A stretch of DNA of 64,000 nucleotides, taken from positions 64,001 through 128,000 of IMG/VR virus record IMGVR_UViG_3300021255_002539, one strand, 5' to 3'. Below, one piece after another: positions 1-54,276 of the stretch. Origin of the DNA: a virus (taxonomy: Duplodnaviria > Caudoviricetes). Each line of letters opens with the position of its first letter. The first letter of the stretch is position 1. Both the position numbers and the translations under genes were made by a program. The notes under the pieces were generated by a model. It was not told the DNA's origin, made no database searches, and saw nothing but the letters and a program-made list of their open reading frames with translations.

Positions 1-1731
1 ACCCGCCAGTCCATTCAGGGCGTTCCCCAATGCAGAGAACAACCCACCAGAAGATCCTTGGTTCTACTACTGGGTGGATTGCTGACCACCTCCACCTACC
101 ATCCCACCGGTCAATGCGTTGAATGCGGACGAAGCAAGGTCTGCCGCCGCCCCAACCAATCCCTTTGCTGCCCCAGAGGCGACACCCAAGGCACCAGTGG
201 CAGCATCCGTCACCAGTCCAACCGCACCAGTAGCCAAGTCCACAGCACCACCAATCGCCTTGTCCATGAACGATGGCTCGGCGCCAGGGGCATTCTGCTC
301 GTTCGCTTGAAATCCCTCTGGTTGTGCAGACGCATTAGCAACCTCCGAACCAGTGTCCAAAACCTCGTTGTGTACATCAGCGACAGCAGCAACATCCCCA
401 GGAACCTCACCTTGCCCCATTCCAGCCTCCTGCTCTATCGTCTTGTCGTGGAGGTCGCCATTTGGGTCGTTGGTGTCGTTGGCTTGGGCGTCCTTGTTCT
501 CCCATGGCTCCTGTTGGTCGGGCGTCGTGTTCTACTCACCTTGGTCTGGGGGATTCCCCTCCTCGTTCACATCCATGTTTGAGGTTTGCGTTTCGCCATC
601 GCCATTCTGGTCAGCATATTCGTCTGGATTGTAGTTGGGATCGTCCTTGTTCTGCCATTCTGGTTCGTCCTCTCCTGGCATGTCACCCTCACCTTGCTGC
701 TGTGCGTCTTGCTCGTTCTGATACGCCTCGTCGCGCATCTCCTGCAACGCCTCTTGCATCTGCTCCATTTCCTCCTCTGTTGGACCAGTGTCGTCTTGGT
801 CTGGGTTCTCGTCTTGGTTGTCTTGGGAACCAGACGCCGATGGAGGCGTGGTGAACACGAACGACCTTCTGTTCCCCAGGTTGGCAGAGCCCGAACTGGA
901 CCCAGCAACATCCCCCATTATGTCCACCAGGCACATGTCGCAGGTCAAGGACAGACTCCTGAGCAAATTGCTGACGCCAGACCCATTCACCTCGAATGCG
1001 TTGTAGTTGGTTGGCTTCACCCCAATGTACTTGTAGGAATAGTACTGATACTCTGCGTCGTTTCTGGATTCCTGGGAACTGGGCATGTCCCTGTACCGCA
1101 TTCTGGGACGCTGAACCTCAAGGGTTGCCATTGGATAGGGGGTCGCCCACTCTGTGTATGCAGCATCTGGCTTGTACCACCATGGGGAGTTGATGTCCTT
1201 CATCCAGGGATAGAACAGGGAATCCAGAATGGAGAACTCGGTGTCGACCATCTGCAGGGTTATCTGTTGCTGACCATCAGACGCATATGGGGAGAACGAG
1301 CCAGCAGCCGTTTTTCCGAACAAAGTGTCAATCTACTCGCCATTCGCGGGCTTAATCTCTGGCAACTGCGCCTGCCGCACAAATGGAGTCAAGTCGATGC
1401 AATTGTATGGCAAGGATGTGTCGTCTGTTCCACTCTGGATTCCCCCCTCGCCCCACAGACTCCAGTTGGTGGCATGGAAATCTGGGGCAGTCTTGTCAAG
1501 CACCGGCCTCCACCCAAACTCCACATATGGACACTATATCAATGTGCCCTGGGCGTCGTGGAACCAGAGGAACACATAATACTCCGGGTCGGTGATGATG
1601 GTATAGTTTGGGACAGTTGGCTGATGAAACTTGTCGAGAAACCGTTCCAACCCTTGGTGTGCATCTCGACCCATCGGGTCCTGATAACCATTGGTCATCA
1701 TCTCCTTGCTGTTGAATATATTCTCCATCAC
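1..1731 (-). CDS. Tail-tube/baseplate tube-initiator-like protein with long acidic, Q/G/A-rich C-terminal extension (runs off window; TAG=Gln at 1534, 1333, 532, 67, 64)
   Basis: Track ORFs 1534-1731, 1333-1524, 532-1323 and 67-420 share one frame, separated only by TAG; the N-terminal part resembles gp19/gp48/gp54-type folds (VRQAQLPEI, ITLQMVDTEFS..FYPWM, YKYIGVKPT); GTAAATA motif at 1738-1744. Confidence 0.55.
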
Positions 1732-36710: not shown

Positions 36711-38696
36711 TCAGAACTCCGTCAGCACATTGTATTCTGCCTCTCCATCGTCCCATTCATCCCCATTTGCGAAGTCGAAGGTCTCGTTGATGGCGAAGAA
36801 CTCCCGCTTGCTTCCATGACCCCATTGTCTGTTTCCATAGAACAACTCGTCGTCTGGGATGTCCCTTTCTGTTGCAGCCAATTTCACGACCTTGTGTTCC
36901 TCCAGGTTGCCAAGTTGCGAGACAATGCCCTTGTTCGCCTCCAAGTTCACGGTCTACTCCAACAAGCTCTGGTCAAATGGGGATGTGTACACTACCTTCT
37001 CAGGAAGAACCCTGTCCATCTTCGTCTTGAATGCCTTTACCACCGAGTAGTGTTGGGTTATGACATCAGCAAACAGCAGGTACATTCCCCATATCCATGT
37101 CAGCATATAGTCGTCGTGGCACTTGTCCTTCGCAGCAAAAGTGATTGAGTTCGAGGTGTTCTTCCTGACGAATGTTCCCATCTCGTTCACCAGAAGTTCG
37201 TCGGGTATCGAGATTTCTATTTCGTCGGTCGTTATCAGCTCGTTGAGGAACATGCATGCCTCCAACTTCGTCTTGTTCTTGGACTTCACGCCATAGGTTA
37301 TCTCGCCATACTTGCCAGTTGGGGAAATAGCCTGCTCGTAGAACATTCTGTCCCTGGGGTAGTTGTAGGTATCCAACATGATGTCCACGAAACCAGAGCC
37401 AACGCCATTGTTCTCAACTATGAATGGAGGGAACGCATAGAGCTTCAGGAACTCGTATGTGGCATATCCGAAATCCACCAATGTCGCCTTTGAGCAAGAC
37501 ATACGCGCCACCAACTGGATGTGCTTGACATCTGTGACATCCCAGACATTTGCCACAGACGAGTCGTTGCCAGTTCCCTCAGAGATGTCCCCAGAAGCAG
37601 CATATGTCCTGGTTGGGTCAAACGGCTTCCAGAAGTTCGCGGTTATTTCCTTGTCTGGGTTCTTGGAGAGGTTCAACTGGGCTGGCTTGGGGTAGTTCTT
37701 CAAGTTCATTCGGAAATGCTCTATGTCCTCAGATGGGACAAGCGAGGCGTCGCCAGCAGACTTGAACTCGCACTCAAACTCCTGCAACCACCTATTCATT
37801 CCAATCGTGGCAATCTGCTGCCGCTTCCATTCCTCGTCACGACCAGGAACATCATACCACAAGAATCGGAAAGCCTTCCAGTTCTCAGCCTGCACGATGT
37901 TGGGGTCAGTAGCCTGCTGCCAAGTGTCGTAGAACAGGTTGTTGGAGGTTCCGTTTGGCGTGGATACCATGATTGCCTTTGAGTCCTTTGAGGACGAAAG
38001 CACAGGGAACACGGAAGCCATGAACTCGTCTGCTATTCCTTTAGGAATGAAGGCCGCCTCATCCATCACGAGAACATTGGCTGAGAAACCACGACAGCCG
38101 CTTGAACCAGTTGCAAAGCACCTGATTATCGAATTGTTCTCGAATTCTATGCACTTCTTGTTGTATGTAGTGACACCTATCTTGATTTCGGATGGGCAGT
38201 ATTCATAGCCCAATCTGATTCTGTCCATGATTTCAATGGCTATGTCCAGCTTGTTGCCACATACCATTATTCGCTTGTCTGGATGGTACATGGCATACCA
38301 AAGGAGAAATACTGTGTATATCGTAGTATTATGAGACAGTATGCCATTCGTCAGGTAGAGGTGGTTACTATCGTCTGACAACTAAACATCATACATATGC
38401 TTTGACTTTCCTATGTTGTCCACCTAAACAACTTTCACAAGTCCATCCTTGCATCTAATGTCCAATCCATCAGAATCCTTTGCAAAAACCTGATTGCCCA
38501 TCTTGTCTATGAATATGTGATTGTCTGCACATTCCAATGTAGTGCCATCCGAGAATCTAACCAGGTATGTCTCGTACTTTACGGTCTTTCCGACATACTA
38601 TATGTCGTTCCACACCACATCCCCTTCTTCGTCAAGAGATGCAATCTACCAGTTCTTCAACGAGAATAATCCTATGAACTTCTTAATCGGATTCAT
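36711..38696 (-). CDS. terL: Large terminase C-terminal half fused to split-intein C-fragment (IntC 38328-38696, 123 aa) (TAG=Gln at 38646, 38598, 38424, 38382, 36954)
   Basis: Own ATG at 38696; Hint motifs LECADNHIF, MYDV, YLTNGILSHN|T; then gp17 ATPase (VMDEAAF, VSTPNG) and nuclease (GDISEGTGNDSS, HDDYML). Confidence 0.85.
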
Positions 38697-39858
38697 CTTC
38701 ACACCTCGCAATGAAATCCAAGCACTTGGCTATTGCCTACTGTCTATTGCTCTTGTATTCCTCATCTGTCACGACGAGAATCTTGTAGCCCTTTGATGCA
38801 ATTTCCCTTCTTCGCATCTCATCATACTCCTTGTTTACCTCGCCATGCCAGTGCAATCCATCATATTCAACTACACACATCGTTTCAGGTATGCAATAGT
38901 CCAAGTAGAAGCATCTGCCGTTGTCGCGCTCAAAAACCAATTCGTTGTTCTGCTTGTCTCCGTTTAATGCAAACCACGCCTTGTGTTCCTTGTTCGTTCT
39001 CTTGGCTTCAATCTCCCAGAACATCGCCTATGACTCGTAGCTGAATCCATTTACTGGTGGAATGTGCGGACACTTTGATTTGTTGATGTCAAACATCTCT
39101 TGTTCTGACCTATTGTATAGAGAGCGAATCCATCTTCTCTGCCTATCTTCGTAAATTCGCTTACCTTCCTCCTCGCCATACTTCTCAATGCACTTCTCCA
39201 ATGTGAATGTGCGTTGCCGCTCACTCAACTTCTTCTTCGCCTCCTCTTCTGAATACCCTTTGTTGAGCCAATATTCCAAAGATGTCGTATGCACTATGCT
39301 CGCGTTGTTTTTCTTGGCGCGATTGAATGCAGCATCCTCTTTCTGCTCGTCGGTCATGTTTTCATAGCCAACGAAGTTCTTCGAGAATGGCGAGAACTTT
39401 CCACCGTGGTTATAATATGGATTCTTCACTTCCATCAATTCATGATATGCCTTCTTCTGGAATTCCTCGCTATCCGGAAAACACAATCTACACAACTCCT
39501 TGGAATTTACTGTCTTTGGATGTTCCAACTACCAAGGAAGCACACTGTCAAAAAACACATCGAAATCAGTATCGTTGAACTATCTACAGTGTGAAACTAT
39601 TCTATGGAATACATTGAACTGACTATTCCAGATGTTCTACTTGTGCAATTTCCCTATCTTGGCATATACTCGCTTTAGGTACTTCTCAACAATTTCAATC
39701 GCAATTCCTGAGAACTTGGTGGAAGAACCGACTCGTTCACTCAACACCATCCACTCAACATCCGTAAGCCCATGCTCTTTCAATAGATGCTTGCGTATGG
39801 AATTGGACTTGAACTCCTTGCCACAATATGGACATTCTATCTCGATATTCTTAAACAT
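38683..39858 (-). mobile_element. Free-standing Vsr/DUF559-like homing endonuclease (391 aa; TAG=Gln at 39637, 39580, 39529, 39028, 38737)
   Basis: N-terminal CPYCG..HLLKEH zinc finger, GYSEEEAK..Q.TFTLEKCIEKYGEEEG repeats, C-terminal YLDY...VVEYDGLHWH...GYKILVV; different frame from both terminase halves; TAA stop. Confidence 0.75.
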
Positions 39859-39893
39859 TGGTAATTCCCCACTTGTCGTGTTGTCATTACTAT

Positions 39894-40391
39894 TTACACC
39901 TTTCTCCCAAAAAACTTCGCCAACCAATACAACACGCCAATCGGAATTGGAATCTTCAGCCACTTAAACCACCTATGACGAACCCACACTATCGTTCCGA
40001 AGGACACACACTTTCCCACCTAACGTGACGCACAGACAATTGCTCTATTGTTGTCCTGGATGAACTTCAACAACTCGGCCTGCTTTGGATATGGATTGAG
40101 CGTCACCAAGCCATCCTTCAACGACACAATCTTGAAGTACTTGCGGCAGAAATATAGAATGTCCTGCTTGCATTTCCTGATTTCCCTGGCTCGACGCTTG
40201 AATTCCTCTGGAGTCAGAATCTCCTTCTCGCCGGCCTTCTTGATTGAAGCAAGCTCCCCAGTTGGATTGCCCGACTTCTTCTGTTGCTGAACCAACTATG
40301 CAGACGCCAATTGAGGGCCTTGTGGCTTTTCCTACCCAAGATCCAGATTCTCGAACTTGTCGATTGTCGGCTTCTCTATTCCTAATCCCAT
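39894..40391 (-). CDS. terL: Large terminase N-terminal fragment (127 aa) fused to 38-aa split-intein N-fragment (39897-40010) (TAG=Gln at 40332, 40296, 40020)
   Basis: KCKQDILYFCRKYFKI..LNPYPKQ..CASR[TAG]VGK|CVSFGTIV...; ends at TAA 39894. Confidence 0.85.
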
Positions 40392-40394
40392 ATA

Positions 40395-41114
40395 TCACGC
40401 TTTGAGTCCCCTCGTTGGACTTGGAAGAACCAATGAATTGCCTTTAGTGGAATGCCTCACAAGATATGTGAATATGTCATGTGGATCGTTTAGTGTGGAA
40501 GGGACAATGAAATTGCAATCGTATTTCTGATATTCATCTGGAATGCCGTTTGCGAGGAAGTCCCTCATCAAATTATGTTCCAATTCAGACATCAAGTGCG
40601 TGTCCATGCCACGGTGATACCAGAATGCGAACTCGTCGAGGATGAGGGTGTTGTTTCTGTCGTGCCAATCCACGCAAGTCAAGGCGTGTGGCGAGACGAA
40701 GTGTATTCTTTCTGAATCGAGGTCGAATCCACCCGTGTTGGAGACGTTTGCGAACAATTCCCCTACCCTTTTCGCCATTGCCATGTTTGGTTCTACAATC
40801 CAGACTTTGTGATCCGGGAAAAACAGATTCTTCCAATACACGAACACGTTGTTCGCAGTAGAGATTCCAACCTGGCGTCCCTTCGCGCAGAAGAAATAGT
40901 CCCTTGCCGTGGACACTCTCTTGAGATATTCCCTTTGCTCAGGCGAGAGCTGAATGGCGTTTCCCAAATGGTCTCTGACCACGAGGTACTTGTCCACGAA
41001 ATAGAGAATGTCGTCCTTGCATCTCTCGAATCCCGTCCGAGAGTCGATTGCAAACGTTGGCGTTACGGCAAGCGCAACCAACGAGCCAATAAACTGTTTT
41101 CTGTTCATGTCCAT
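40395..41114 (-). CDS. Truncated terminase-ATPase paralogue with degenerate Walker A and Tat-like N-terminal leader
   Basis: CKDDILYFVDKY, LSPEQREYL, KGRQVGIST, LILDEFAFW, IVPSTLN; no nuclease domain; MNRKQFIGSLVALAVTPTFA leader. Confidence 0.7.
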   Translation of the reverse strand: MDMNRKQFIGSLVALAVTPTFAIDSRTGFERCKDDILYFVDKYLVVRDHLGNAIQLSPEQREYLKRVSTARDYFFCAKGRQVGISTANNVFVYWKNLFFPDHKVWIVEPNMAMAKRVGELFANVSNTGGFDLDSERIHFVSPHALTCVDWHDRNNTLILDEFAFWYHRGMDTHLMSELEHNLMRDFLANGIPDEYQKYDCNFIVPSTLNDPHDIFTYLVRHSTKGNSLVLPSPTRGLKA

Positions 41115-41162
41115 ACTTCAATTATACAATTTCCAAATTAAGGTATTTACACAGAAGCAAGC

Positions 41163-41200
41163 AAAAGGTTGGTTCGAGGATTTCGACCCCGAACCAACCA
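41163..41200 (-). terminator. Rho-independent terminator after AAA ATPase
   Basis: GGTTGGTTCG...CGAACCAACC stem with T-tract on the minus strand. Confidence 0.6.
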
Positions 41201-41259: not shown

Positions 41260-42384
41260 TCAAACCTCGTAGTCTTCGTTGAGGTTCTTGCCGAACTTCG
41301 CCCTCCACTCCTTGTACTTGGGGTGGCGCATGAGGTTCATCACTGCGGTGCCCTTGGGGATGCGCTCGGTTCCCTCACGGGCCTGAGTCATCGCGGTGGT
41401 GGCGAAGGCGGGCGGAAGTCCCATCGAGATGCGGAGGAAGCCATCAACGAGCTTCTTGGTCTCGGCCTCGTCCTTGCCCCGCCAGATGTGGTAGACCATC
41501 GCAGAGGTGAGTGCGAACTTGAGGTCGTCGCGGCTCGGGATGACAACCTTCTTGCTGGGGTTAATCATCATCTCGTAGACATTCTCCAGGTTGTTGGCAA
41601 TCTTGAAGAACTCCATGAACTGCTGACCAGTAGGGACGCCAACCAGACCATAGACTGCCTTGCGAAGCAGGGTCTCGTTCTTGAGAATCTTGCACATCTC
41701 GGAGACGCGCTCCCAAGAACGCGGGGTCGGGAAGCCACGCTCCAGGTTCTGGTCGTCCACGCTGAGAAGGAGCTGGGGCTTGAACTGGATGAAGCCAACG
41801 ACCGCCGGATGGACGCCATGCATGACCGCCCAAGTGATCCAATCCTGGGCATCCGCCTCAATCTCCAGGTGCATCATGCGGTTCGCAAGTGCGCTGGACA
41901 TCGTGGTGGAGACGGCGCGGTCGCAAGAACGGTTGCCTGCAGCCACGATAATCCACTTGGACGGAACCTTGTAGATGTCGCCACCACCAAGCTGGCGGTC
42001 GAGAATGAGCTCGTAGGAAGCCACCTGGACATCCTTCGGCGCGGCGCTCAACTCGTCGAGGAAGATGATGCCACCCTTGGAGTTGTCGGTGGGGAAGATG
42101 GAAGAGGGTAACCATTGCACACAATGGTTATCCTTGTCGGGAAGGGGGAGACCACGGATGTCGATGCTCTCCATCTGAGCGAGACGGACATCCACGAAGC
42201 CAAGACCCATTTCCTTGGCGAGGGACTTGACGATGGTGGACTTGCCAACACCAGGCGCACCCCACACCATCACCGGGGGAAGCGAGGACGAGAGGGACTC
42301 GTCCGCCTGAACACCCTCAAGCGAAGAACGAAGAATGTCCTTCAGCTCGTTCGCGTGAACCACATTGTGCGTATCTATTGCCAT
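41260..42384 (-). CDS. MoxR-like AAA+ ATPase (early)
   Basis: WGAPGVGKS, IDIRGLP, IIFLDEL, AAGNR, ALANRM, FPTPRSWE motifs; AGGAG RBS; GC-rich codon use, no TAG. Confidence 0.85.
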   Translation of the reverse strand: MAIDTHNVVHANELKDILRSSLEGVQADESLSSSLPPVMVWGAPGVGKSTIVKSLAKEMGLGFVDVRLAQMESIDIRGLPLPDKDNHCVQWLPSSIFPTDNSKGGIIFLDELSAAPKDVQVASYELILDRQLGGGDIYKVPSKWIIVAAGNRSCDRAVSTTMSSALANRMMHLEIEADAQDWITWAVMHGVHPAVVGFIQFKPQLLLSVDDQNLERGFPTPRSWERVSEMCKILKNETLLRKAVYGLVGVPTGQQFMEFFKIANNLENVYEMMINPSKKVVIPSRDDLKFALTSAMVYHIWRGKDEAETKKLVDGFLRISMGLPPAFATTAMTQAREGTERIPKGTAVMNLMRHPKYKEWRAKFGKNLNEDYEV

Positions 42385-42502: not shown

Positions 42503-42610
42503 ATTTGATGAAAAACGAAGAAAAACGCCCGGAAATTGGAAGATTTGGATTGGAAGTTCAATTGGATAGACGAAAACCAATTTAGTTTTCCAATTTCCGG
42601 GCCATCAAAT
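42503..42610. repeat. Long intergenic inverted repeat (15-bp perfect arms 42527-42541/42588-42602; outer 8-bp arms 42503-42510/42603-42610)
   Basis: GCCCGGAAATTGGAA / TTCCAATTTCCGGGC and ATTTGATG / CATCAAAT. Confidence 0.75.
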
Positions 42611-45600
42611 CACTGTTGATATGGTTCGTAGACATTGTTGATGTGCTCGGTGTCCTTTGCGATTCCGAACATCATCTTGGATATTCTCCACGCGCAATAT
42701 CTTTCGGGTTCAGGAAGGGATCCAATAACCTTGTACTTGTACCACGCAATCAGGTCCAGACCTGGGTGGTTGGTCTCGAACACATCACCCAAGTTGTAGT
42801 TAGGTGGCAGTGCTGAAGTTGATCCCATTCTGCAGCAATACTCCCATTGTGCCTCTGTTGGAAGGTCGAAGTTGATGCCAGCTTTCTGGCCAGAATACCA
42901 ACCAACTGCCTAACCTGGTTCATATGATATGACCTCGCCACCATCCACACCATCTATTTCAACCTTCCTGGGCTTAGTCTCGTACACGACCTTGTTATTG
43001 AGAATGTCCATGAAGGAAGTCGTTCCAGTCCTTGAATTCATCTGGAACTCGTCGCCCTTTGTGTTCCTGGTGAGTTCATCATATGTTATGGTGTATTTCG
43101 CACCATCGCTTCCACCGACTTGCTTATATACCTGCCCCGTTCCCCTGACCTCGTTGTATGTGGCGTAGTAGTATGGGCGGGTGTCGTCAAGTGGCTTGTA
43201 CACTCCATCTTCAGTCAACTCCCGAATGAAAGTATCGTCGTCGTCCACAGTATATCCACCGCGCACTTGGACAACCACTGGATCAACTTCGATGATGTCG
43301 TCTTCCCACGCAATTCCCCTTCCTCCGGGTCTTGCCTTGTTTCTGTATTCCTCCTTCAATTGCGCCCACTCGTCCTTCTCCCACACGGACAAGTACTTCC
43401 AATAGGAACTCTCGATTTCACGTATGTTGGCACTCAACAATCTTCTTGCTTCAGATTGCGATGGTGTTGTGCCATTTGCCCTCAACTTGATGTAGCACCA
43501 CTGGGCAATCGTCAGCTCGAATGGGTCGATGAAGAAGTGCTTGTTGCGCTGGTATTTGCTGTTTTCTGTGTCTCCTGCCTTTATTGCGTACAAGTCATGA
43601 TCCACATCAGTGTTCTTCTCGACATCGACCCTCTTCTTTTGGTAGGAACCACCATTGCCCAGTGTCACGGTGATGTGGTCGTCAATCGCTCCATCTGGAT
43701 TGGATTCTATATCACGGTACTTCCTGGCTTCCATGTCAGTGACCAGGTCGTAGTCGGACGAATGGCTGCCCATCTCGAATATATCGAACTTTCTTCCTGA
43801 TATGCTTGGGATTCTCAACAACAGCAACTTGTCCTTCTTGTAGAGATCCGTGTTGATGTCGGGCAATGTCCCAAAAAACTTCATTGGGAACTTCCCTGCC
43901 GTGGATTGTTCATTGGAGTTCAAGTCTATTATGCACGAATTGTACGAGAACGAATTGGCAGACGACAAGCTCTCGACTTTTGTTCTGGCAGAGTTGAATA
44001 TCTGATCCAAACCAGAGACATCTTGAATTGGCAATGCTGCCATTTTCACGGAACTGTCCTTGTTGGCGTAGTCCACGACACTCACCCCATTTCCATCAAC
44101 CATGTTCCCAAATACCTGGGTTTGGTATCTATATGCCAATTGAACGGGGGCGGATTTTTGTATATGTTCGTACAATTCATCCATTTTCGGACATATTGCA
44201 GTCCATATGGCGGAATATGCTGCCTTGCACTAGACGGTTGGGTTTTCATTAACCGTAAACCCGTTAAGTTCAATTTCCGAACTATTTGCCAAACAATATT
44301 GAACCCACTTCCAAGCCTTTGGATAGGCGCGGGGTTGGGTTGGGAGATGTTCGCTGTCGAACAAATTCTCTCCGACAATTTGACCATATACTGACAAGGC
44401 ATCGTAATTGGCGGGGAGGTTTGTGCCATTGAATGGTCCATTGAGTTTCCATATTTTGTTGTCCAGAGGCTTGATGGAACCATTGTTTCCGGATGTATCC
44501 TCTCCAAATATCTTTTCATTTCGCGTTATTATCTTCAAATGACCAGTAACAACCTTGGTTGATTCGTTATTGTATGCGTACTCCAATGTAACCATGTCGG
44601 TTGGAGGGGTTTTGAATATGTCACTGGTTTCTGTCTGATACGACGGTATCCCATAACCACTCACCCGGCCGCCGTTTGAATCCAGGTTTTCACTGTATAT
44701 CATGCTCTCGCCAGACACAAAATACCTGAACATGCAAAAGTGCGATCTACTTGAGTTAATTTTATTATTATTGTGCAGGTCTATACAAACACCCAAAATC
44801 TCCATGTTCTCGTGATCCAGGAAATTCTTGTGGAAATAATCAAAGCTACGCCTGTCGTCGGAATTCCAATATGTGCTTGGGTTGCTGTGTGGGAGATACA
44901 CAATGTGCTTTTCCACCCAGTCTTTCAGACCGTCCGACCACCCGGCCGGTGGTTGTGGTCGATAAGTCAAATAGTAGTCTCTAACCTACTTCAAGAAAGC
45001 AACATCAATTGCCTGCCCGTCTGGCAACAAATCTATTCCCTCAAGTACAGCTGCATCGATGTCAGGATTACTCTTCTTCAAATAATTCACAATTTTTTCC
45101 CGCCAGGCCGCAATCGAAATTCCACCATTGGTGATGCTCAACCCACTTGGCAACCCAATCAGGAAATACTTGTATCTATCTTTCTACTTTTCGTTTTTAG
45201 CATCATTGAGGAATGTATCTATGTCATATGTTCTTTTGCCTATTATAGTGTGGTTGGATGTATATGGATTTTCAAGTCCAAATATCGTGGGTATTGCAGA
45301 TACCCATCTGGAGTTTATCGTACTCTATTTGTCTTGATAGGGGATTGGATTCCTCATTCTACCATTATTGCTCAGTATCCATTGCAGATTCGACACGACC
45401 AATGTACCGAAGTCCCATTTCGTTCCTGCCCATTCCTCCTTCTGCTCCTCATGGCAATCATTCCACAAGGCCTTTTTGTCGGTTCCAGTTGGGATAGAAG
45501 CATTTATCGTGCTCTGCCAATCTTCAGGAAGTTCAATCTTCAACATGTCCTTGAACATGTCTATGTCGTTGTATGGGAACAAATGTGTTGGGTCAGTAGT

Positions 45601-48600
45601 GTCGTCATGTACTGGATGGGGTGCGTCAGAATCCATCACGAACATATACACATTGGTTGGATCTGTGGTATTCGCCATGGAATCCATCAACCTGTAGTAG
45701 CCAATTGTCTTTGCCATTGTGTAGTCGATGGACTTTATCCTGTCTTTCTGGGCCTTTTTTGCTGTTGTGGTTATACTTTCTATCGTATAGCCCAGTTCAG
45801 CGAACCTTCCTTGTTTTATGAGTTCTTTCTGTTCCTTGGTCAACAAGTTCTCCGCCGAACAATCTGCCAATGGGGAATAGAATCCATTCAAATCCAGATC
45901 TTCTATTTCCAAGTCTCTGGTCTACGATAGACCCCCAACTCTCTTGTAATCCCAATTCAAATAGCCATTCTCCAATGTTGTCTGTCCATTCAATCCCATC
46001 CTGGTTGGGATCGGGATCGTCCAAGTTATCTTTTGTCCACCATTCTTTTTCTCCAGTTCAGAACCCCTAAAGGTGAGTTCTGTTATCCTTTGCTTAATCG
46101 GTAGAATTGATGTGATTGGTCCAAGCCAGGAGTTATACAAGTATTCCAATGAAGAAGAATATTCATTGCCGTCCAACCCGATTTCTGTCAAGTAGTCCCT
46201 AACCTAGGTCTTCAAATCTTCATCTCTGAACAACCTCAGTGAGTGGGGGTCTGGTGGTTGTTGGGAATCGTTCAACTTGCTTCCAGCATCAACATAGAAT
46301 GCCAGTTTGTTCCCACTCATTGTGGTTGGGAACGACACCAATTCGAAATCGAAATCCCTGAATTCGGCGTCGTTTGTGCCTCCAAAATAGTGTTTTGCCA
46401 CACGGGAGAACGAGTTGTCGAACTCGTTTGAGAACACGAATATCAACCTGGGGACATTCTTTCTGAACATGAACGCCTAACCCCTGTTCCATGGTCTGGC
46501 ATAGAAGTATCCATCCCTGATAAGCTTGTCCAACATGTCGCAGACGGGTTCGCAACCAGCCCACCAACTGGACAAGGTTCCATTGTCGTTCTACGCAAAT
46601 GGCCATTCGTATATGTCAGCCTTCTCCTTGGAGATGTCGTAGGTGAATAGGTTATAATTGTGCTTGAATATGTCCCCTTTCGTCGCATCATCTGAATATT
46701 TTTTGTAGTTGTCCCCCGATACATTGCCGTATGTCAAAACATCTCCGGATCTATATACTGGAACACCACAAAAGATGTCGACTTTCTTTTCAATTTTTTT
46801 GGAATAACGGGTGATTGTATGCCCCTTCCATGGATCACCCCCACCACCACCGATGAATCTACCGCTATGAGATGATCCACCAGAACTACCACCATCCCTC
46901 AATGACATTGTTGAAATGGATTCATCGTCGCCCACCCCAAACGACATCTTCTTCTGTTCGGGAAGTACATTGGATTTGACAGTTCTGATTGACGCACCAT
47001 CCTGACGGCCTTGCCATTCTTCCATGTACTGTTTGAACTTGTAGCACAATCCACTAGGCTGTCCAGATACATCCGTGCTGTTGTTTATCTTTTGTATTTT
47101 GCCGGTATGGTATGTACCATTAATAATATCGCGTTCTTCATCTTCTGCCAGGTCTATCCAATCCTTGCATTCAGGTTTCATTTCCCCGTCTTTGTGGTCT
47201 CGACCCTATGTATATGGTGAATTTTTCCAGAATGAGCTATGCCAGCTATGCCAATCCCCGGATTTTGTTGTTCGATTAGTAATTTTGTATCTGCAATATG
47301 CTGTTTGGCTGACATCCTTGACTTTCTGCCCACACATCATGTGAATTGTCGGTCCCAGGAACAAGGCGGATGCAACATGGCACTTGTCCTTGATGTCGTC
47401 GTTGTCGTTGCCGTCAGTGACTTTGCCAGCATATAGCTTTACGATTTCATTGGCTTGTTCAACCATCTTCTGAATTTGGCTGTCGTTTGATGCCGATGCG
47501 TCGAAGAGGAAGAACAAGTCAACAGGTCCAGTTACAACAGTGGAACCAGATTCGCCATATGCAGTGAATGTCATGGATGGTCTGAACCCAACATTCTCAT
47601 GTGTGGAGTTCTTGGACTTGTTCTGTTTTCTGCCTATGCTTTCCCTGGCTGGGGATATCGTGTTCCTCGCGAATTGATCGAACGCACCACCCTTGATGAC
47701 CTTTTCTGTAGTTGTAATATCCCCCTTGGTTCCAACGATGTGGTTTACAGACGAACCAGCGTGTCTATCGCTCCAGTCGTCCCTCACGAGTTCCCACACA
47801 TTGCCGAGCATGTCGTACATCTTGATGTCTGAACTGGGGGCATTCAATTTGCCAACCCTGTGAATCATGTAGTCGTTGTAGGACCACTCGTATCTCCAAT
47901 AGAGGCTTGGAACAACCTGGAATGTTATGCCCTTCATGTCCTCCACCGTGAGATCGTGTACATCCTTGTCCATCGTCTCCATCGAGGTGTATACTGGGAC
48001 AACCTGCTTGTTCATCACAGTTTGTTGTATCCTGCGAACCCATCTGTTCGTTACATCATCTGGGTGATATTCAGCAAATGGATACATCTGGTCCAGGTCA
48101 ACCAACTGGCCAAACCGCTCTGTCGTGTCAACTAGGCTCTACTGGAGTGTCTGGAAGTCTCCAATTACATATGAGGTTGGGAGGTCGCCATACTTGTGCC
48201 CCTTGAAGTAGCCATGCAGGTCTTCCTCTCCTGCATTTGGTTGGTCTGGCCTTATTCCATCCTCGTCGTCTGAGGCATCCATTCCTGCCAGGGACAGAAC
48301 CCTAAACGAGTCTGTGCTTTCCATTATCTCCTTGTAGGTCAATGACGCTCTGGCCATGTCGTTTGACACGAGTTGGCTGAAGGTGCTGTACTTGTTGCTC
48401 AACCTGCGCTTTTCAGCAGCAATCTCGTCATTTGTCAACCTCACATCCCCAGTGAACAGAACGAGCGAGGCCTGATGCTCCCTGGCGTTCCTCTCCAGTA
48501 TGGATGTCACCTCTATGAAGGAGTTTGTCCACTTCACCAGGCAAGGTTCTCCATAGTTGGTGGAGATGTGGTCTATGTCTCCGAATGTGCTGCGCTGTCC

Positions 48601-51600
48601 TCCAAGCGTCTTCTGCCTCGCCTTGAATGTCCTGTAGATGCCCTTGACAATCTTCTTGGTGTATGTCTCCAGCTGGGTCCAGGATGTCATATCGTCACCC
48701 AGTTCCCTGTTCCTGTTCTTGAAGTACTTGATGTAGGCGTAGTGCCGAACCACATTCCAGAGGTTCCACACAATCTGCCTATTCTCCATCGAACCAAGTA
48801 TGTCCTTGTTCAAGTCCCCAGGCACGGCCTTTGCCACCATGTCTGTCTCACCATTGGAGTACTGTCCCATGAAGTACTTGTCGGCAATTGGGTCTTCGTG
48901 TTGGTTCGTTCCAAAGTCGTTGCTTGGGTGGTGTACCTTCCACTTCTCGTCAGTTCCAGCGTAGTTGGGATCGAACGCCCCCTTGTACACATTGCCAGAG
49001 TTGTCTGTCGTCAGAACGGCGTGTCCATTCGCGTCCTTCGCGAAGTCGACTCCCAGGGTATGGGCGACCGCATGCCACCTCTGCTCGTCCTTCACGATTG
49101 GCTTGTGTACCTCTTCCCCAGTGGCAGTAACAGTGGTCTCCTCGTCCTGCCTCTCGTGTGCGCAACTCCAGCACCAACCACCCTCTTGGTAGTTCAACTT
49201 CGCGCTGCTGGACAATCCATAGCAATCCACATCTGGACCGTTGTTCTTTACGCCCCTGTTGTCCCACCAGAACACATATGGCATTATGTCCTCAATCTCC
49301 ACCACCTGATCAATCTAGTCCATTGGCTCAACCATCGTGATGTAGAACCAAACGGAATCCTCGTCGAAATCGTCTATCGCATGTGCCTGACCCAGGTTGT
49401 ACTGGTACTTTGGCGAATTCACATAGGAGCCCGTCATGTCATAGTCGTCAACCCAATCCTGCAGGGGGAACCTGGGATTGTCTGGGAGGTTTTCGTATGC
49501 AGATCCATAGACGCCATTGTAGGTGTCTGGTTCGTGGTCCTGGTTGGTGTCCAACATCGTCAACTGCTTAAGTGTGTTGAGCGAAATCAAGTTGTTGTGC
49601 AATTTGGAGAGGATTCTGAGGTTGTTGTCCCCATGGTGATGGCGCGCCAGGAACTCGCAGGAATCCACCATGTCGCCGAAGTTGGGGTCAGCGCGCCTGT
49701 CCATGAAGGACTGCTCGAATATGACGCCATTTATGTGGTTGGAGGTGGTTGGGAATGCGCCAGAAGTCAAATCCAACATGTCACTGTACACTTCGCCATT
49801 GCGCCCCTTGTTGAAGAACGGCTGCATGAAGTATGTCCAATCCCTGTTGTTGTACAGCCAGCACCATGTATTGGCCGCCTTGTCCTCCCTCGTTGTTGGG
49901 TCGATGTATATCCTCTGCAGGTCAGAATCCATCTGCAGGAAGTTGCTGCCACACACATGGTTGTGGTGGTCGTAGGAGGATGGAACATACAGCGCGCCCT
50001 CGTTGTACTCCATGTCAACCATCGTCTTGGATGGGATTGTACACCAACCGAAAACGCCATAGTCGTTCTTCTCGTCGCAATCGCACTTCAAGGTCTGACC
50101 CTGACAATCGTCGAATATGTCCCTGACCTCTGGCATCGCAACTGGCCTGTACTTCTTCACGGTGGATGTGAACGTCTGAACCTGCTTGTTCGTCCTCGCA
50201 ATTGGATTCAACTTGTGCTTGATGAAGTCGGTTATGTCTGTTGGGGATTGCACAGAGGTGTTCTCGTACAGGCAAATTGGGCTGACGACATACATCATTT
50301 GCTCGTCTGCCAACTCTGGATGCAGTCTTTGACTTTGCTCTGCCCCAGAATCCCTTGTCTTGTTGACCCCCAACCACTCCTTCTTGTAGTCGTAGAAGTA
50401 GTGGAAGTCGTTGTACTGAACGCCAGTAATCTCCACGTTCACTGGGCGTATTCTCCCCTGGGCATATTCGCCAGAAGTACAACATATCAACCTGTCTCCC
50501 TGAACTTGGTTTGCGGCATGGAAGTTGGAGAACTTCAACTCGATGGTTGGCTCAAACGATATCCACTTCTTGTCGTCCTGGTTGTGCCAAACCTGATTGT
50601 CGTCTGGTCTCTCGCACACAATCTTGTCCTCGGATCCAGCTTGTTCACAAACCACCTTGTCCCCCTCTCCAACGCACATTATGTCAGAGCCAGTTGTGTA
50701 GCCATACCACCAATTGGATGGCTCGGGGACATCAATCTTGAGGAAGTACTCCTGGTGCGCGATGTCCAGGTTGATCTTGAGCAAGGCATTCAACAAAACC
50801 TCAACGTCGCCTATGTCCATTATCGACAACTGACGGAAGTCGTTTTCCTGCTACTTGTATGTTGGTTCCCCATACATGTCGACCAGCATCTTCACATATG
50901 GGCAATTCCACAGTTCCTCGAAATGCTTACCACTTGCAGTTGGGTCCAATCCACACAACCCACAATGAAAACTGGATTCGGTTGAGTCAACAACGAGGTT
51001 GGAGCAATCAGAAAACACATCCTAGTCAATCTACGACTGTTCAACCTCCACGGGAATTTCGTTGTCTTCTTGATGCTCAATGGATCCAAGGTCCATCTCC
51101 ACAACCTCGTCGTAGACAGCGACAAACACCATGTCAGAAAGCACCGTGAAGGATGAGGACAAGTTGCCAGACTCCAGCAGCCAATATCTGAACTTGAACT
51201 GGTGTCCATCATCCGTAGTGTAGTGGTTCTGAATGTGGAAGTTTGGAATTCTGCAGTTCTGAACGACATCAAACCTCTGTTCTGTCCTGGTCCCACCCAC
51301 ATCCATGTACTTGAACACGACATTGAGCATGCTGTTCTTGATTTCAACGACAACAGCCTCGTTCACAACGCCGTATTCTGGCATTTCTCCATTCTCGCAA
51401 ACAATTGGTTCTGATGTATCACCACACACAATTGGCTCGGCGTCTTCTCCACATACCACAAACTCGTTGGAATCGACGCCACCTATGTAGCTGCCATTTG
51501 GAATCGTCCAACCACCAAACTTGAATTCAGTATCCACCAGTTGTGGATCGTGGTCTGGAACGACCATTTGGTTCTTCTTGTTGTCTATCAGAACCTCGCA

Positions 51601-54276
51601 ATAGAGCTTTTCCCCAACAGTGAACTTGACCTTGTATACAGAATCCTCCCACATCGCCCGAAACGTCAAAACTGGTGGTTTGTCCATGTTGTACACGATT
51701 TGGGGAGTGAAGTTCTTTCCAGGGTACAATGTATATGTCGTGTTCCCAAGCGAGTATTTCCAACTGCTGAACCTCCCCGTCTTGACCTTCGGGGATTCAT
51801 ACCCACTTGTTGGTTGCCATGAACTGTCGTCGTGGTATGTGTATAGCGACTCTTCCTTGGCATATTCGTACCCACATGCCGGCACTGGAGTCGACTTGCC
51901 AGACTATACAACGATTGGGTCCATGTGCCCAGATACAGACGAATCGTCGCTTTGGAACTGCACTATGTAGTCGGACACCCACATGGCGTGTATTGTCATC
52001 GTGGTCTTGCCATATTCGAAGTTCTTGGGAGTCAGAACCGACTTTGTCGTGTAATCGACTCTTGAACCACCACTGGTCTTGCTGAACCCAGACAGAACAT
52101 AATTCACTGTCTTCCCATTTGCCGTGAATGTTGGCTTTTCCACGACAACCAATTGGGACAAGTCGAATTCGCCTCCAGCATCCTCGAATTGCACATGCAG
52201 GATGTTGCTTCCTGGCATCCATTCGGCAGAACCATCGGGGAACTGTATGTTGCCATGCGCCCCACCCTGCCAGGTCATGAATGCAGTCGTTGAGCAGTCT
52301 ATGAACAAGTCCCAGGTTCCAGTATAGTTGTCCTAATCTGAGGTAGCCCTGGCCAACATCGTCTTCGCAATTGGCGTATCCAGGAACTCCCTTGGGCTGG
52401 ACGCCTGCCTATCGAGCAATGGGCACAAATCCCACTTCTTGTCCAGCCAGTCCATCGTCTGCTTGGAGAGAACCTGGTTGAACTCCCTCAGCACTGCGCG
52501 TTCGTTTTTGTCCAGGACATCACTGTTGTTCTCGTATGTCTTTAGCTTCGTGAGGTATCTGAGGTAGTCCTTCCCCACTTCGTCTTCTGTATCGTAGTAT
52601 ATCCCCAAGTCGTGGTCAGACTTCTTGAGTGAGTCAGTCGTCAAGTACTTGTAGCCAGAATCCAGGTTGATGTGCCTTTGGAAGGTCTCAGTTGGCGTTG
52701 ACTTGAACTGAAGGTATTTGTATATCCTGGAGAACACGCGCTCGATGACGATGGCGCACTGGGATTCAGAATAGTACTGCGCATTTGCCTCGGTGAATTC
52801 CTCAACCCCATTGGTGTTTGGGTTGAATATGTTGAGGATATGTTCGTTCTGCACAACCGAGAAAGCGTCAACCAGTGCATCGAAGCCAGAAGCGACCATC
52901 TTTGGCAGGACAGACCCCTTCATGTCGGAAACGAAGTTTGGCTTGGTGTACTTCCCATCCTCTGGTACTGCAATCTCCATCAACTCGCAATACTCCCTGC
53001 CAGACATCACCTCGTATGCCCGTCCCAGGTGCAAATTGGTGTACCTCGTGAACCTGGAGTACCCATCGAAGCTGGAGTATACCTTGCCCTTCTGCTCGAA
53101 CCAATCGAAGTCAGAAGCATATGCTGTCACCTGTCCCCTGTAGCCCTCCAATCCACGCACCAACCCGCAAATCTTCTTGAGGACACCCCTGGGAGTCGTG
53201 TTCTCCCTTCTGTCGTTTCTGATTGCGCTTGATTTCAACTTGTACTTCTGCCACAAATCGTCGTCCCATACAACCTGTTCACCCTCCTTCTTGTGGGGGT
53301 TCATGTTCATGTACCTGTCGTCGAATGGATATTGGGCGTCAATCTGCCTGTAGAGCAATTGATACCAAATGTCCAACGCCAAGATGCCCTCCCATTGCGT
53401 GTGTGGATGCTTGAACCCATATACCTCGTGGCACATTCTGATGTTGGAGAGCTTTGCGAACAAGGATGCCAAGTGTTCGCAGAAGGTGTAGATGTAGGCC
53501 CTCTCGTCCTGCTCCAACACAATGTTCCTGAACTTGTCCTTCGCGTCCTCCAATTCCTTCTTGAGGTTGCCCAGTTCGTATAGCTTTGATGTCAACTTGT
53601 GCCTGTTCTTGTCGACTTGGTTTTCCTTGACATCGTATACCCCAGTGTTGTAGTCGGTTAGGAACTTGTCTGAGTATATGCCAGTCATTGGTATGTTCTA
53701 ATCGCCAATTCTGTATTCACCCACCTGCGAATAGTCCACAAATGGCGTGTATGTGAAGGAATCCACGAAGAAGCCACCCATGGACTCGTTGAACTTCTGC
53801 CCGAACTCGTTGTTGAACTCTGCGAATTGACCACTGACGTTCTTCAAACCACACCAGGTGCTGCCCTCTGCGACAGAAAACCCCTTGAACCCACCCCGAT
53901 TGTCCGAGTAGAACGTCAACCCATCCTTGAACAAGTTGAAGTCAGAAGAGAACATGAGGCCAGAGAAGTCCTACAGGACAATCCTCTCAATGTGGTCGAA
54001 TGGCGTATTCAGCCTGTCCATTATGTTGGGCCAGTACTCGGGGTTGTTGTTCACCAGGATTTCAGATTTGGTGTTATCGGGCTATAGTGCCGACCTGCCA
54101 TCCTCAACCGACGGTGCAGTATATGTTGGAGGCAGGTTCTGAAGCATCTCCTTGCGCACCTCGTAGTCAGTACGCTCCTTCTTCATCACATCGCGAATCA
54201 GCTTCTGAACCTGATTAGTTACCCGTTCTTTCAATTTGTCAATGTAGTCCATGATCTTTCGTCTATCACTATCCAA
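42610..54276 (-). CDS. ~3,888-aa giant virion/adhesin protein: InlB-B/Listeria-Bacteroides-like repeats, vWA-like domain, split FGE-sulfatase (C-type lectin fold) domain; 20 TAG=Gln codons
   Basis: Fifteen track ORFs share one frame; I read every gap and found only TAG, never TAA/TGA, until TGA 42610; motifs DLFFLFDASAS, YDMLGNVWE, FDLPTEAQWEYCCR; GTAAATA at 54285-54291. Confidence 0.8.

What the first reader, a model, noticed from the sequence alone, without database searches (positions are those of the whole stretch)
40395..41114. Catalytically dead terminase-ATPase paralogue with a Tat-like leader beside the real terminase: possible immune decoy
Seen: a 239-aa ORF directly upstream of TerL-N mirrors the gp17 ATPase domain (CKDDILYF vs CKQDILYF; Walker B LILDEFAF). 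Its Walker A Lys is replaced (RQVGIST vs RQVGKTT), it has no nuclease domain and no TAG codon, and it begins MNRKQFIGSLVALAVTPTFA, resembling a twin-arginine signal with RK. Both TATAAT (41121-41126) and GTAAATA (41144) lie upstream. Known: Avs/STAND defence proteins sense terminase ATPase domains. Inference: a decoy made before the code switch that sequesters terminase sensors, or a membrane-tethered regulator of packaging. The split real terminase may also help evade sensing.
Basis: partly seen in the sequence, partly recalled or inferred. Interest (0 to 1): 0.75.

Follow-up and report, generated by a model that had tools for sequence, protein, structure and literature searches.

The report
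Exported terminase-like ATPase beside phage terminase
A huge gut phage carries, just upstream of its DNA-packaging enzyme gene, a conserved extra copy of that enzyme's ATPase domain that has a twin-arginine-type export signal and an apparently intact (not dead) active site, which suggests a packaging motor part was re-used for an accessory job at the cell envelope.

Summary
The sequence observation is right. ORF 40395-41114(-) encodes a 239-aa protein with the T4 gp17-type terminase ATPase fold, no nuclease domain, no TAG codon, and a signal-like N-terminus.

Two parts of the interpretation fail:
- It is not "catalytically dead". The Walker A lysine has moved to position 1 of the P-loop (K-G-R-Q-V-G-I-S-T). 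Lambda gpA and the only terminase of a cultured Flavobacterium phage use the same layout. Walker B Asp, the catalytic Glu and the C-motif are all kept.
- The decoy idea has no support. Isolated terminase ATPase domains activate Avs2 and Upx sensors rather than soak them up.

The leader is real. It is conserved across more than 110 clusters, and as a canonical RRxFLK in a wider superfamily, two members of which pass the curated Tat-signal model.

Other findings:
- The gene is the first cistron of the terL unit, behind the terL promoter.
- It is TAG-free, while the 5' end of terL is TAG-rich.
- It evolves much faster than its neighbours and carries a recombining variable cassette.
- It is absent from a complete close relative, so it is accessory.

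Best reading: a Tat-exported, nucleotide-binding terminase-ATPase derivative that acts in the envelope. The function is inferred, not shown. I found no description of this family in the searchable literature.

The parts
40395..41114 (-). Gene for the 239-aa leader-bearing terminase-ATPase-like protein (P0004), stop codon included
41049..41114 (-). Signal-type leader, residues 1-22. It has an n-region with R5-K6, an uncharged h-region, and P19-x-F-A22 as the c-region. Disordered in the AF2 model.
41085..41102 (-). Twin-arginine-type motif R-K-Q-F-I-G (residues 5-10). R5 and F8 are nearly invariant even in the wide superfamily.
40857..40883 (-). Deviant Walker A, K78-G-R-Q-V-G-I84-S-T: Lys at position 1, Ile at the canonical Lys position
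   Evidence: PMC6379665 Table 1
40632..40649 (-). Walker B strand with D160 and the catalytic E161 (T-L-I-L-D-E)
40494..40499 (-). C-motif (coupling motif) S206-T207, after the strand that holds the invariant I203
40440..40619 (-). Variable, recombining cassette (residues 166-225): highest entropy in the protein and swapped between lineages
40398..40439 (-). Conserved C-terminal tail (residues 226-239, ...L-P-S-P-T-R-G-L-K-A) of unknown role
41167..41199 (-). 13-bp terminator-like hairpin with a T-run after the upstream AAA_5 ATPase gene. A hairpin is also present at this place in relatives.
41121..41150 (-). Conserved promoter-like block: GTAAATA, 3 nt, TAATTTGG, then TATAAT. The same block precedes terL directly in relatives that lack the paralogue, so it is the terL promoter.
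39894..40391 (-). terL N-extein plus short N-intein piece. It starts 3 nt after the paralogue's stop, and 2 of its 123 aligned N-extein codons are TAG (a further TAG lies in the Walker A Gln).
41260..42384 (-). Upstream neighbour: AAA_5 / MoxR-like ATPase (phrog_1297), TAG-free, conserved synteny

Best explanation
P0004 is a member of an undescribed, phage-only family of about 240 aa. Each member has a twin-arginine (Tat)-type signal peptide followed by a stand-alone T4/gp17-type terminase ATPase core, with no nuclease domain.

The active site is not degraded. It uses the 'lysine-first' deviant Walker A that functional terminases also use, and it keeps the P-loop Arg/Gln, the Ser/Thr, the Walker B Asp, the catalytic Glu and the C-motif.

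In this phage clade the gene is an accessory insertion between the terL promoter and terL. It is co-transcribed with terL but, unlike terL, can be translated without TAG read-through.

Inferred mechanism: the domain folds and binds nucleotide in the cytoplasm, which would explain why it uses Tat rather than Sec. It is then exported across the inner membrane and acts in the envelope. Its fast-evolving, recombining cassette (residues 166-225) would set the specificity.

The most likely envelope job is to handle DNA or parts of a competing phage in the periplasm, as in superinfection exclusion or lysis-inhibition-type sensing. This draws on the DNA-gripping surface of terminase ATPase domains.

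Shown: the fold, the motifs, the leader, conservation, synteny, accessory status, mosaicism and TAG avoidance. Inferred: export, nucleotide loading and the envelope function.
For: Fold and family:
- PHROG TerL E=1e-16; gp17 by profile E=9e-11 and 2e-42; AF2 plus Foldseek give gp17 as top hits.
- Atlas neighbours are all Terminase_6N clusters.

Active site:
- Among 261 aligned relatives, Lys is at position 1 only in 177, at the canonical position only in 61, at both in 1 and at neither in 20.
- 19 of the lysine-first proteins are TerL-sized. Of six of these scanned, four hit Pfam Terminase_6N above its cut-off.
- The only Terminase_6N gene of the cultured Flavobacterium phage vB_FspM_immuto has K-S-R-Q-L-G-I-S-T and lies next to the portal gene.
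- Lambda gpA has KSARVGYS (PMC6379665 Table 1).
- All 134 leader proteins that align there keep D-E. The 'neither' class often has DN or ND instead, which shows what dead copies look like.

Leader:
- In the close family, 100 proteins have RK, 10 have RR and 2 have no motif, of 112.
- In the wide family, 21 have RR and 6 have RK, in the RRxF[LI]K form.
- The uncharged stretch is 12-26 residues with a Pro before a small-x-small end.
- TIGR01409 matches 6 of 28 wide-family members, and P0159 (18.1 bits) and P0179 (21.6 bits) pass its 16.7-bit cut-off. Pfam TAT_signal matches 7 of 28.
- A second, unrelated family in the same genome carries the same kind of leader.

Accessory and fast-evolving:
- Paralogue identity between relatives is 40-49%, while the AAA neighbour is 79-89% and the terL C-extein 83-94%.
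- The cassette at residues 166-225 is swapped between lineages: P0004/P0005 are 88% identical in the core and 32% in the cassette; P0004/P0012 are 60% and 88%.
- The gene is absent from a complete 433,895-bp relative, where the profile finds only terL.

Operon:
- The terminator and the GTAAATA...TAATTTGG block are conserved, and they precede terL directly in genomes that lack the paralogue.
- There are 0 TAG in 1,212 paralogue codons against 17 in 831 terL N-extein codons.

DNA binding by terminase ATPase domains: PMC5389665.
Against: - Export was not tested. No dedicated signal-peptide predictor was available.
- P0004 itself has RK, not RR, and does not reach the TIGR01409 or Pfam Tat-signal thresholds.
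- A fully conserved ATP-hydrolysis site is odd for a compartment without a regular ATP supply. This would fit a cytoplasmic role better.
- Co-transcription with terL and tight coupling (1-10 nt spacing) hint at a packaging-related role.
- The phage encodes no TatA or TatC, and the host, and so its Tat status, is unknown.
- No homologue has any experimental data.
- The envelope function (exclusion or DNA sensing) is an analogy, not a result.
Confidence: 0.5

Rival explanations
1. Packaging accessory at the inner face of the membrane. The leader docks the protein on the membrane or on TatBC without full translocation. The active ATPase domain then joins, tethers or tunes the TerL motor or prohead during packaging of a 414-kb genome.
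For: - The full ATPase motif set is kept.
- It is the first cistron of the terL unit, 3 nt before terL.
- This clade prefers RK over RR (100 of 112). From my own knowledge of Tat signal mutagenesis, this usually weakens transport.
- T4 prohead assembly starts at the inner membrane (own knowledge).
Against: - A complete close relative lacks the gene altogether yet has the same terL.
- In other phage clades the gene is not near terL.
- The positive-inside rule and the short h-region with Pro argue for a cleavable export signal, not a cytoplasm-facing anchor.
- It evolves about three times faster than TerL.
Confidence: 0.2
2. Anti-defence protein or decoy. A terminase look-alike made before TerL engages or blunts terminase-sensing immunity (Avs1-3, Upx).
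For: - Accessory, fast-evolving and mosaic, as counter-defence genes often are.
- Translatable before the code switch.
- It has the fold that Avs2 and Upx sense (PMC13601566).
Against: - In PMC13601566, isolated terminase ATPase domains, and the T4 terminase-like protein vs.8, activate EcAvs2, and ATPase domains alone activate Upx. A cytoplasmic look-alike would therefore be a trigger, not a sink.
- The conserved export leader removes it from the sensors' compartment.
- It is only about 25-32% identical to its own TerL and belongs to a different terminase clade.
- No sensor is known for the unknown host.
Confidence: 0.08
3. Same architecture, but the leader is an ordinary Sec signal or an uncleaved membrane anchor, so the twin-arginine likeness is incidental.
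For: - RK, not RR, in most close relatives.
- There is no basic 'Sec-avoidance' residue in the c-region.
- P0004 itself is below the Tat HMM thresholds.
Against: - R5 and F8 are as conserved as the catalytic residues across a superfamily only about 20% identical.
- The wide family shows the textbook RRxF[LI]K motif, and two members pass TIGR01409.
- Sec signals show no such motif conservation.
Confidence: 0.1
4. Decaying 5' remnant of a second terL left by recombination, with no function.
For: It lies directly upstream of terL and lacks the nuclease half.
Against: - 114 clusters of constant length have invariant motifs down to 40% identity, with a wider superfamily at about 20%.
- There are no stops or frameshifts, and codon usage is coding.
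- The leader is an added, conserved feature.
Confidence: 0.02

Closest known systems
T4 gp17-type large terminase ATPase domain (Pfam Terminase_6N), especially the 'lysine-first' Walker A subgroup (e.g. TerL of Flavobacterium phage vB_FspM_immuto; analogous motif in lambda gpA)
   Same: Same fold and the same motif order. Both have the CxxDxxYF N-terminal motif, the P-loop K-x-R-Q-x-G-h-S-T, Walker B h-h-h-h-D-E and the S/T-S/T C-motif.
   Different: It has no nuclease domain and, in the close family, no lid/hinge segment. It adds a signal-type leader. It is accessory, fast-evolving and not needed by a close relative. It forms its own well-supported clade away from the resident terL.
T4 vs.8, an uncharacterised stand-alone terminase-ATPase-like protein (PMC13601566)
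   Same: A roughly 220-aa phage protein with a terminase-like ATPase core and no nuclease, encoded besides the real terminase in a T4-like genome.
   Different: vs.8 has a classic G-K-S Walker A and no leader. Profile comparison with the present superfamily finds only the P-loop (hhalign probability 1.9%). vs.8 lies in an early-gene region, not at terL.
Bacterial Tat substrates (TIGR01409 / PF10518 signal)
   Same: The n-h-c leader has R-[RK]-x-F-[LI]-[GK] and a moderately hydrophobic Gly/Thr/Ser-rich h-region, followed by a mature part that presumably binds a cofactor-like ligand (nucleotide) before export.
   Different: The passenger is a viral packaging-motor ATPase domain, which I have not seen described as a Tat passenger. 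RK replaces RR in most close relatives. Export is unproven.
Phage envelope-acting accessory proteins (T4 Imm/Sp exclusion proteins, T4 RI antiholin, T5 Llp, phi80 Cor)
   Same: Small, signal-bearing, non-essential, variable phage proteins that act in the envelope against other phages or to time lysis.
   Different: No sequence or fold relation. Those proteins are not ATPase-fold proteins. The functional parallel is my inference only.
Small terminase (TerS)
   Same: It occupies the slot directly upstream of terL and is co-transcribed with it.
   Different: It has a terminase large-subunit ATPase fold, not the TerS ring fold. It has an export-type leader and is dispensable in a close relative.

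Membership tests
Large-terminase ATPase domain (gp17 / Terminase_6N type, ASCE) | Significant sequence-profile match to terminase ATPase domains | tested here: met
   phrog_5989 E=1e-16 and phrog_2 E=2e-7. gp17 E=9e-11. A3 profile against T4 gp17 E=2e-42. Pfam Terminase_6N hits 11 of 28 wide-family members, though not P0004 itself.
Large-terminase ATPase domain (gp17 / Terminase_6N type, ASCE) | RecA-like ASCE fold superposable on solved terminase ATPase domains | tested here: met
   AF2 pLDDT 82.7, pTM 0.81. Foldseek top hits are 2o0h, 3cpe and 3ezk (gp17) with TM about 0.6 by query.
Large-terminase ATPase domain (gp17 / Terminase_6N type, ASCE) | Walker A with a phosphate-binding lysine | tested here: met
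   Lys is at position 1 (K78) instead of position 7. This is the same layout as the sole TerL of a cultured phage and as lambda gpA. The two positions are almost mutually exclusive: 177, 61, 1 and 20 (PMC6379665). Catalytic competence itself was not assayed.
Large-terminase ATPase domain (gp17 / Terminase_6N type, ASCE) | Walker B Asp, adjacent catalytic Glu and C-motif | tested here: met
   D160 and E161 are invariant in the close family, and D-E is kept in all 134 leader-bearing relatives that align there. The C-motif is SS, ST or TT in nearly all.
Full large terminase (TerL) | C-terminal RNase H-like nuclease domain; essential single-copy packaging enzyme | tested here: not met
   The protein ends at residue 239, after the C-motif. 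The real terL (Terminase_6N, the only genome hit above cut-off) is downstream. The gene is absent from a complete relative.
Tat (twin-arginine) substrates | S/T-R-R-x-F-L-K motif in the n-region | tested here: inconclusive
   P0004 has N-R-K-Q-F-I-G, with one Arg replaced by Lys. RR occurs in 10 of 112 close relatives and 21 of 28 wide relatives. The TIGR01409 cut-off is passed by P0159 and P0179 but not by P0004.
Tat (twin-arginine) substrates | Moderately hydrophobic h-region and a c-region with a small-x-small site | tested here: met
   The uncharged run has a median of 19 residues (close family) or 16 (wide family). P19 is invariant and the commonest endings are AFA, TFA and SFG.
Tat (twin-arginine) substrates | Tat-dependent export of the folded protein | not testable with these tools
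   This needs fractionation or a reporter in tat+ and tat- hosts. The phage has no TatA or TatC of its own, and the host is unknown.
Catalytically dead pseudo-ATPase | Loss of residues needed for ATP binding or hydrolysis without compensation | tested here: not met
   Only the canonical Lys position is changed, and a Lys appears at position 1. All other catalytic residues are conserved. Genuinely degraded relatives (no Lys at either place, Walker B DN or ND) exist and look different.
Anti-defence decoy against terminase sensors (Avs1-3, Upx) | Binds the sensor in the cytoplasm without activating it and protects the phage | not testable with these tools
   No sensor or host is at hand. Published data show that ATPase domains alone activate EcAvs2 and Upx (PMC13601566), and the leader predicts removal from the cytoplasm.
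T4 vs.8-like proteins | Detectable homology to vs.8 beyond the generic P-loop | tested here: not met
   hhalign of A3 against vs.8 gives probability 1.9% over 35 columns around the P-loop only. The A3 profile finds only gp17 in T4.

The most novel reading that the evidence does not exclude
The ATPase core of the viral DNA-packaging motor has been exapted into a Tat-exported envelope protein. It folds and loads nucleotide in the cytoplasm, crosses the inner membrane, and uses its DNA-gripping surface and a swappable specificity cassette in the periplasm, for example to seize or sense DNA injected by competing phages. Huge phages would then carry a family of such exported motor domains, beside sister forms fused to RHH-like DNA-binding modules.
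Probability: 0.3. Interest if true: 0.8.

Novelty: new variant of a known kind. Interest (0 to 1): 0.62.

Why it matters
Terminase ATPase domains are treated as strictly cytoplasmic motor parts and as conserved targets of bacterial immune sensors. This family couples that domain to a twin-arginine-type export signal. It comprises more than 110 sequence clusters in the close family plus a wider superfamily. That points to a second, accessory use of the packaging motor fold, probably in phage-phage or phage-host conflict at the envelope.

The case also gives a practical warning. A missing canonical Walker A lysine in terminase-like proteins does not mean a dead enzyme, because a lysine-first P-loop is common and functional.

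Finally, the locus is a clean example of two cistrons behind the same promoter block, one TAG-free and the next TAG-rich at its 5' end. It could be used to test the idea that stop-codon recoding gates late-protein synthesis.

Tried and rejected
- **Complex prediction:** paralogue (residues 26-239) against the terL exteins scored 0.00 and gave no verdict, so it is not used as evidence either way.
- **Second leader family:** the AF2 model was too poor to search (pLDDT 59.5).
- **Phage-encoded Tat:** no TatA or TatC found.
- **Prophage or host clue:** a scan of one genome per prokaryote species with the family alignment found no relative. The wide alignment was too diverse to scan.
- **Promoter class:** the long motif (TAAATA, 3 nt, TAATTTGG) is unique in the genome. 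Only the GTAAATA core recurs. Its G/T subclass is only weakly linked to TAG content (p=0.024).
- **TAG absence in this one gene:** not significant on its own (P=0.35-0.55). It becomes meaningful only across relatives and against the terL 5' end.
- **Paralogue tied to the terL intein:** rejected, because L015 and L016 have the paralogue with an intein-less terL.
- **Read-through fusion with terL:** the two are in frame in the window, but not in L004, so this is chance.
- **Identity with 'Jug' gut phages:** rejected, because those use the standard code (PMC12880540).
- **Relation to T4 vs.8:** rejected.
- **Literature:** searches for a Tat-signal terminase-like protein or a terminase paralogue found nothing relevant.
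- **Cultured phages:** tblastn of P0004 against the phage collection matches only the terminase genes of cultured phages and one uncultured huge phage. Four of these hits were inspected, and none is a member of this family.

Full report
**Setting.** The window is part of a 414,060-bp phage contig whose ends overlap by 108 bp. The tool lists it as a complete virus record with direct terminal repeats. TAG is a sense codon in this phage. A 3,888-codon frame at 42610-54276(-) is open only if 20 TAGs are read through. In terL the Gln of the Walker A motif is itself a TAG.

**Observation.** ORF 40395-41114(-) gives a 239-aa protein, P0004.
- the CKDDILYF box, matching CKQDILYF of the terL N-part that starts 3 nt downstream;
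- LILDEF as Walker B;
- G-I-S-T where terL has G-K-(intein)-T-T;
- no nuclease part and no TAG;
- a hydrophobic N-terminus;
- TATAAT and GTAAATA upstream.

The terminase likeness is not chance:
- PHROG terminase large subunit, E=1e-16.
- A family profile finds T4 gp17 among PDB sequences, E=9e-11.
- The wider profile finds gp17 in the T4 genome, E=2e-42.
- The AF2 model (pLDDT 82.7, pTM 0.81, residues 1-22 disordered) is closest to gp17 ATPase-domain structures.

**A conserved family.**
- 114 clusters of 229-267 aa match over the full length at 40-75% identity, on contigs of up to 437 kb.
- Invariant residues include the C-A-K-G-R-Q-x-G-x-S-T-A-N block, D160-E161, I203 and P19. R5, F8 and F21 are nearly invariant.
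- A search of 1.8 billion representatives adds a wider superfamily of 228-279 aa proteins that align from residue 1, leader included, at about 20-29% identity.

The would-refute condition 'unconserved or decaying' is therefore not met.

**Not a dead ATPase.** I aligned 261 relatives to one profile. The lysine is at position 1 of the eight-residue P-loop only in 177, at the canonical position 7 only in 61, at both in 1 and at neither in 20.
- 19 of the position-1 proteins have terminase length. Of six of these scanned, four match Pfam Terminase_6N above its cut-off.
- The terminase of the cultured Flavobacterium phage vB_FspM_immuto is the only Terminase_6N match in its genome and lies next to the portal gene. 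It reads K-S-R-Q-L-G-I-S-T, which aligns residue for residue with K-G-R-Q-V-G-I-S-T of P0004.
- Lambda gpA, a well-studied active terminase, has KSARVGYS (PMC6379665, Table 1).
- All 134 leader-bearing proteins that align there keep Walker B D-E, and nearly all keep the C-motif. The 'neither' class often shows DN or ND at Walker B, which is what true decay looks like.

By the motifs, the protein is built to bind and probably hydrolyse ATP. That it does so is inference.

**The leader.**
- In the close family the motif is N-R-K-Q-F-[LI]-G in 100 of 112 proteins and N-R-R in 10.
- Outside it, RR is the rule (21 RR, 6 RK), and the motif becomes M-x-R-R-x-F-[LI]-K, the textbook Tat consensus.
- An uncharged stretch follows, with a median of 19 or 16 residues, a conserved Pro and endings such as AFA or TFA. 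This is short for a membrane anchor and typical for a cleavable signal.
- The curated Tat-signal models match 6 of 28 (TIGR01409) and 7 of 28 (Pfam) wide-family members. P0159, in the sister group of the close family, and P0179 pass the TIGR01409 cut-off. P0004 itself does not.
- R5 and F8 are as conserved as the catalytic residues.
- A second, unrelated family of about 150 aa in the same genome carries T-T-R-R-x-F-I-G, with RK in its two most distant members. It lies at G000 2-427(-), scores as coding by codon usage, and has 39 clusters.

The phage clade therefore uses this leader class more than once. The phage has no TatA or TatC of its own.

**Context.**
- In relatives the order AAA_5 ATPase, paralogue, terL is kept on one strand.
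- After the AAA gene come a 13-bp terminator-like hairpin and then a conserved block: GTAAATA, 3 nt, TAATTTGG, TATAAT.
- In two relatives that lack the paralogue, the same hairpin and block stand directly before terL. The block is therefore the terL promoter, and the paralogue sits between it and terL, 1-10 nt from the terL start.
- GTAAATA is the core of a genome-wide promoter-like motif: 116 sites, 101 of them followed by an ORF.
- Over the loci examined, the paralogue has 0 TAG in 1,212 codons and the AAA gene 0 in 2,618. The terL N-extein has 17 in 831 and the C-extein 5 in 3,679 (not corrected for relatedness).

If both are read from one transcript, as the shared promoter block and tight spacing suggest, the paralogue can be made without TAG decoding and TerL cannot.

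**Accessory, fast-evolving and mosaic.**
- Between the window and three relatives, the AAA protein is 79-89% identical, the terL C-extein 83-94%, and the paralogue only 40-49%.
- Entropy is lowest at the P-loop and highest at residues 166-225.
- That segment is exchanged between lineages. P0004 and P0005 are 88% identical in the core and 32% in the cassette. P0004 and P0012 are 60% and 88%. P0005 and P0014 are 80% and 98%.
- A complete 433,895-bp relative has no copy anywhere; the family profile finds only its terL.
- Presence of the paralogue is not tied to the terL intein.
- In other phage clades the gene lies near sheath, major capsid or replication genes, not near terL.
- No copy was found in the collection of one genome per prokaryote species.

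**Origin.** On a tree of the ATPase core (FastTree, 138 rows, leader columns left out), P0004 falls in a 99%-supported group of 23 rows. Of these, 21 carry the leader and the other two lack a recognisable one. The resident terL lies far away in a classic-Walker-A clade. The paralogue is therefore not a recent copy of its neighbour. Deep branches are poorly resolved, so I cannot tell how many times the leader was gained.

**How it most likely works.** The signal architecture predicts export. Using a Tat-type rather than a Sec-type signal makes sense for a domain that must fold and bind a ligand (nucleotide) first. The accessory status, rapid change and swappable cassette point to a conflict function. 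Terminase ATPase domains are the main DNA-gripping part of the motor (PMC5389665). I therefore favour an exported, nucleotide-loaded domain that handles DNA or parts of competing phages in the envelope, comparable in role, not in ancestry, to exclusion or lysis-inhibition proteins of T4-like phages.

The weak point is that a conserved hydrolysis site is unexpected outside the cytoplasm. That keeps alive the rival in which the leader only docks an active ATPase at the inner face of the membrane to assist packaging.

The decoy idea is the least likely. The protein is predicted to leave the cytoplasm. Isolated terminase ATPase domains, and the T4 terminase-like protein vs.8, activate EcAvs2, and ATPase domains alone activate Upx (PMC13601566).

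**What is known.** The closest known kinds are:
- lysine-first gp17-type terminases, which share the motifs and fold;
- T4 vs.8, which shares the idea of a stand-alone terminase-like ATPase but is not detectably related beyond the P-loop and has no leader;
- ordinary Tat substrates.

I found no paper on a signal-bearing terminase-like protein in the searchable library. That library lacks most subscription journals.

**The terL split.** The scan noted this separately (e1-5690676). It is an intein at the Walker A Lys/Thr junction with an endonuclease ORF inside. Relatives have a contiguous mini-intein of about 160 aa, or none.

**Limits.**
- No signal-peptide predictor and no expression data were available, and the host is unknown.
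- The counts of motif classes and TAGs are not phylogenetically independent.
- The tree is a quick one.

Noticed in passing
G000:C1:1-427 minus strand, running across the contig junction (L005:2-427:-); outside the window: A second conserved family (about 150 aa, 39 clusters) has the same kind of leader: T-T-R-R-x-F-I-G, with RK in its two most distant members. Codon usage says it is coding, while the overlapping 632-aa plus-strand ORF is not coding in that part. Fold unknown (AF2 pLDDT 59.5).
   Followed up: partly
window 36711-40391 (-): terL is interrupted at the Walker A G-K|T-T junction by an intein. The intein is itself split by a roughly 1.3-kb insert that encodes a zinc-finger/DUF559 endonuclease-like ORF. 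Relatives carry a contiguous mini-intein of about 160 aa (L004, L001) or none (L013, L014, L016).
   Followed up: partly
window 40020-40391 (-) and the same part of terL in L001, L002, L004, L013, L014, L016: TAG codons are concentrated in the first ~120 codons of terL: 17 in 831 codons, against 5 in 3,679 in the rest. The conserved Walker A Gln is encoded by TAG in the window, L001 and L004. This looks like a translational gate on the packaging enzyme.
   Followed up: partly
whole genome G000; e.g. window 54291 (-) upstream of the 3,888-codon gene: GTAAATA is the core of a promoter-like motif at 116 sites, 101 of them followed by an ORF. It often occurs as palindromic pairs (TATTTACC...GGTAAATA) between divergent genes. 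The base before the core (G or T) is weakly linked to TAG-bearing or TAG-free genes (p=0.024).
   Followed up: partly
L012:3935-4801 (LR756508.1) and proteins P0181, P0286, P0173, P0178, P0299: Other stand-alone lysine-first terminase ATPase domains carry an N-terminal segment that looks like a ribbon-helix-helix module instead of the export leader. LR756508.1 also has a full-length terminase 40 kb away. The packaging ATPase core seems to have been re-used with different front ends.
   Followed up: no
proteins P0198, P0211, P0184, P0209, P0253 and others: About 20 short terminase-ATPase-like proteins have no lysine at either P-loop position, and many have Walker B changed to DN or ND. These are better candidates for truly inactive terminase look-alikes.
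   Followed up: no
window 42610-54276 (-): Giant 3,888-codon ORF with 20 in-frame TAGs. Its counterparts in relatives carry an FGE-sulfatase domain.
   Followed up: no
L002:12991-14100 and L003: An IS605 OrfB / TnpB-like gene sits just downstream of terL in the Hadza-derived 398-kb relatives. It is absent at that place in the window.
   Followed up: no
window 40398-40439 (-): The last 14 residues (...L-P-S-P-T-R-G-L-K-A) are as conserved as the P-loop in the close family but absent from the wide superfamily. They may be a docking or processing peptide of unknown partner.
   Followed up: no
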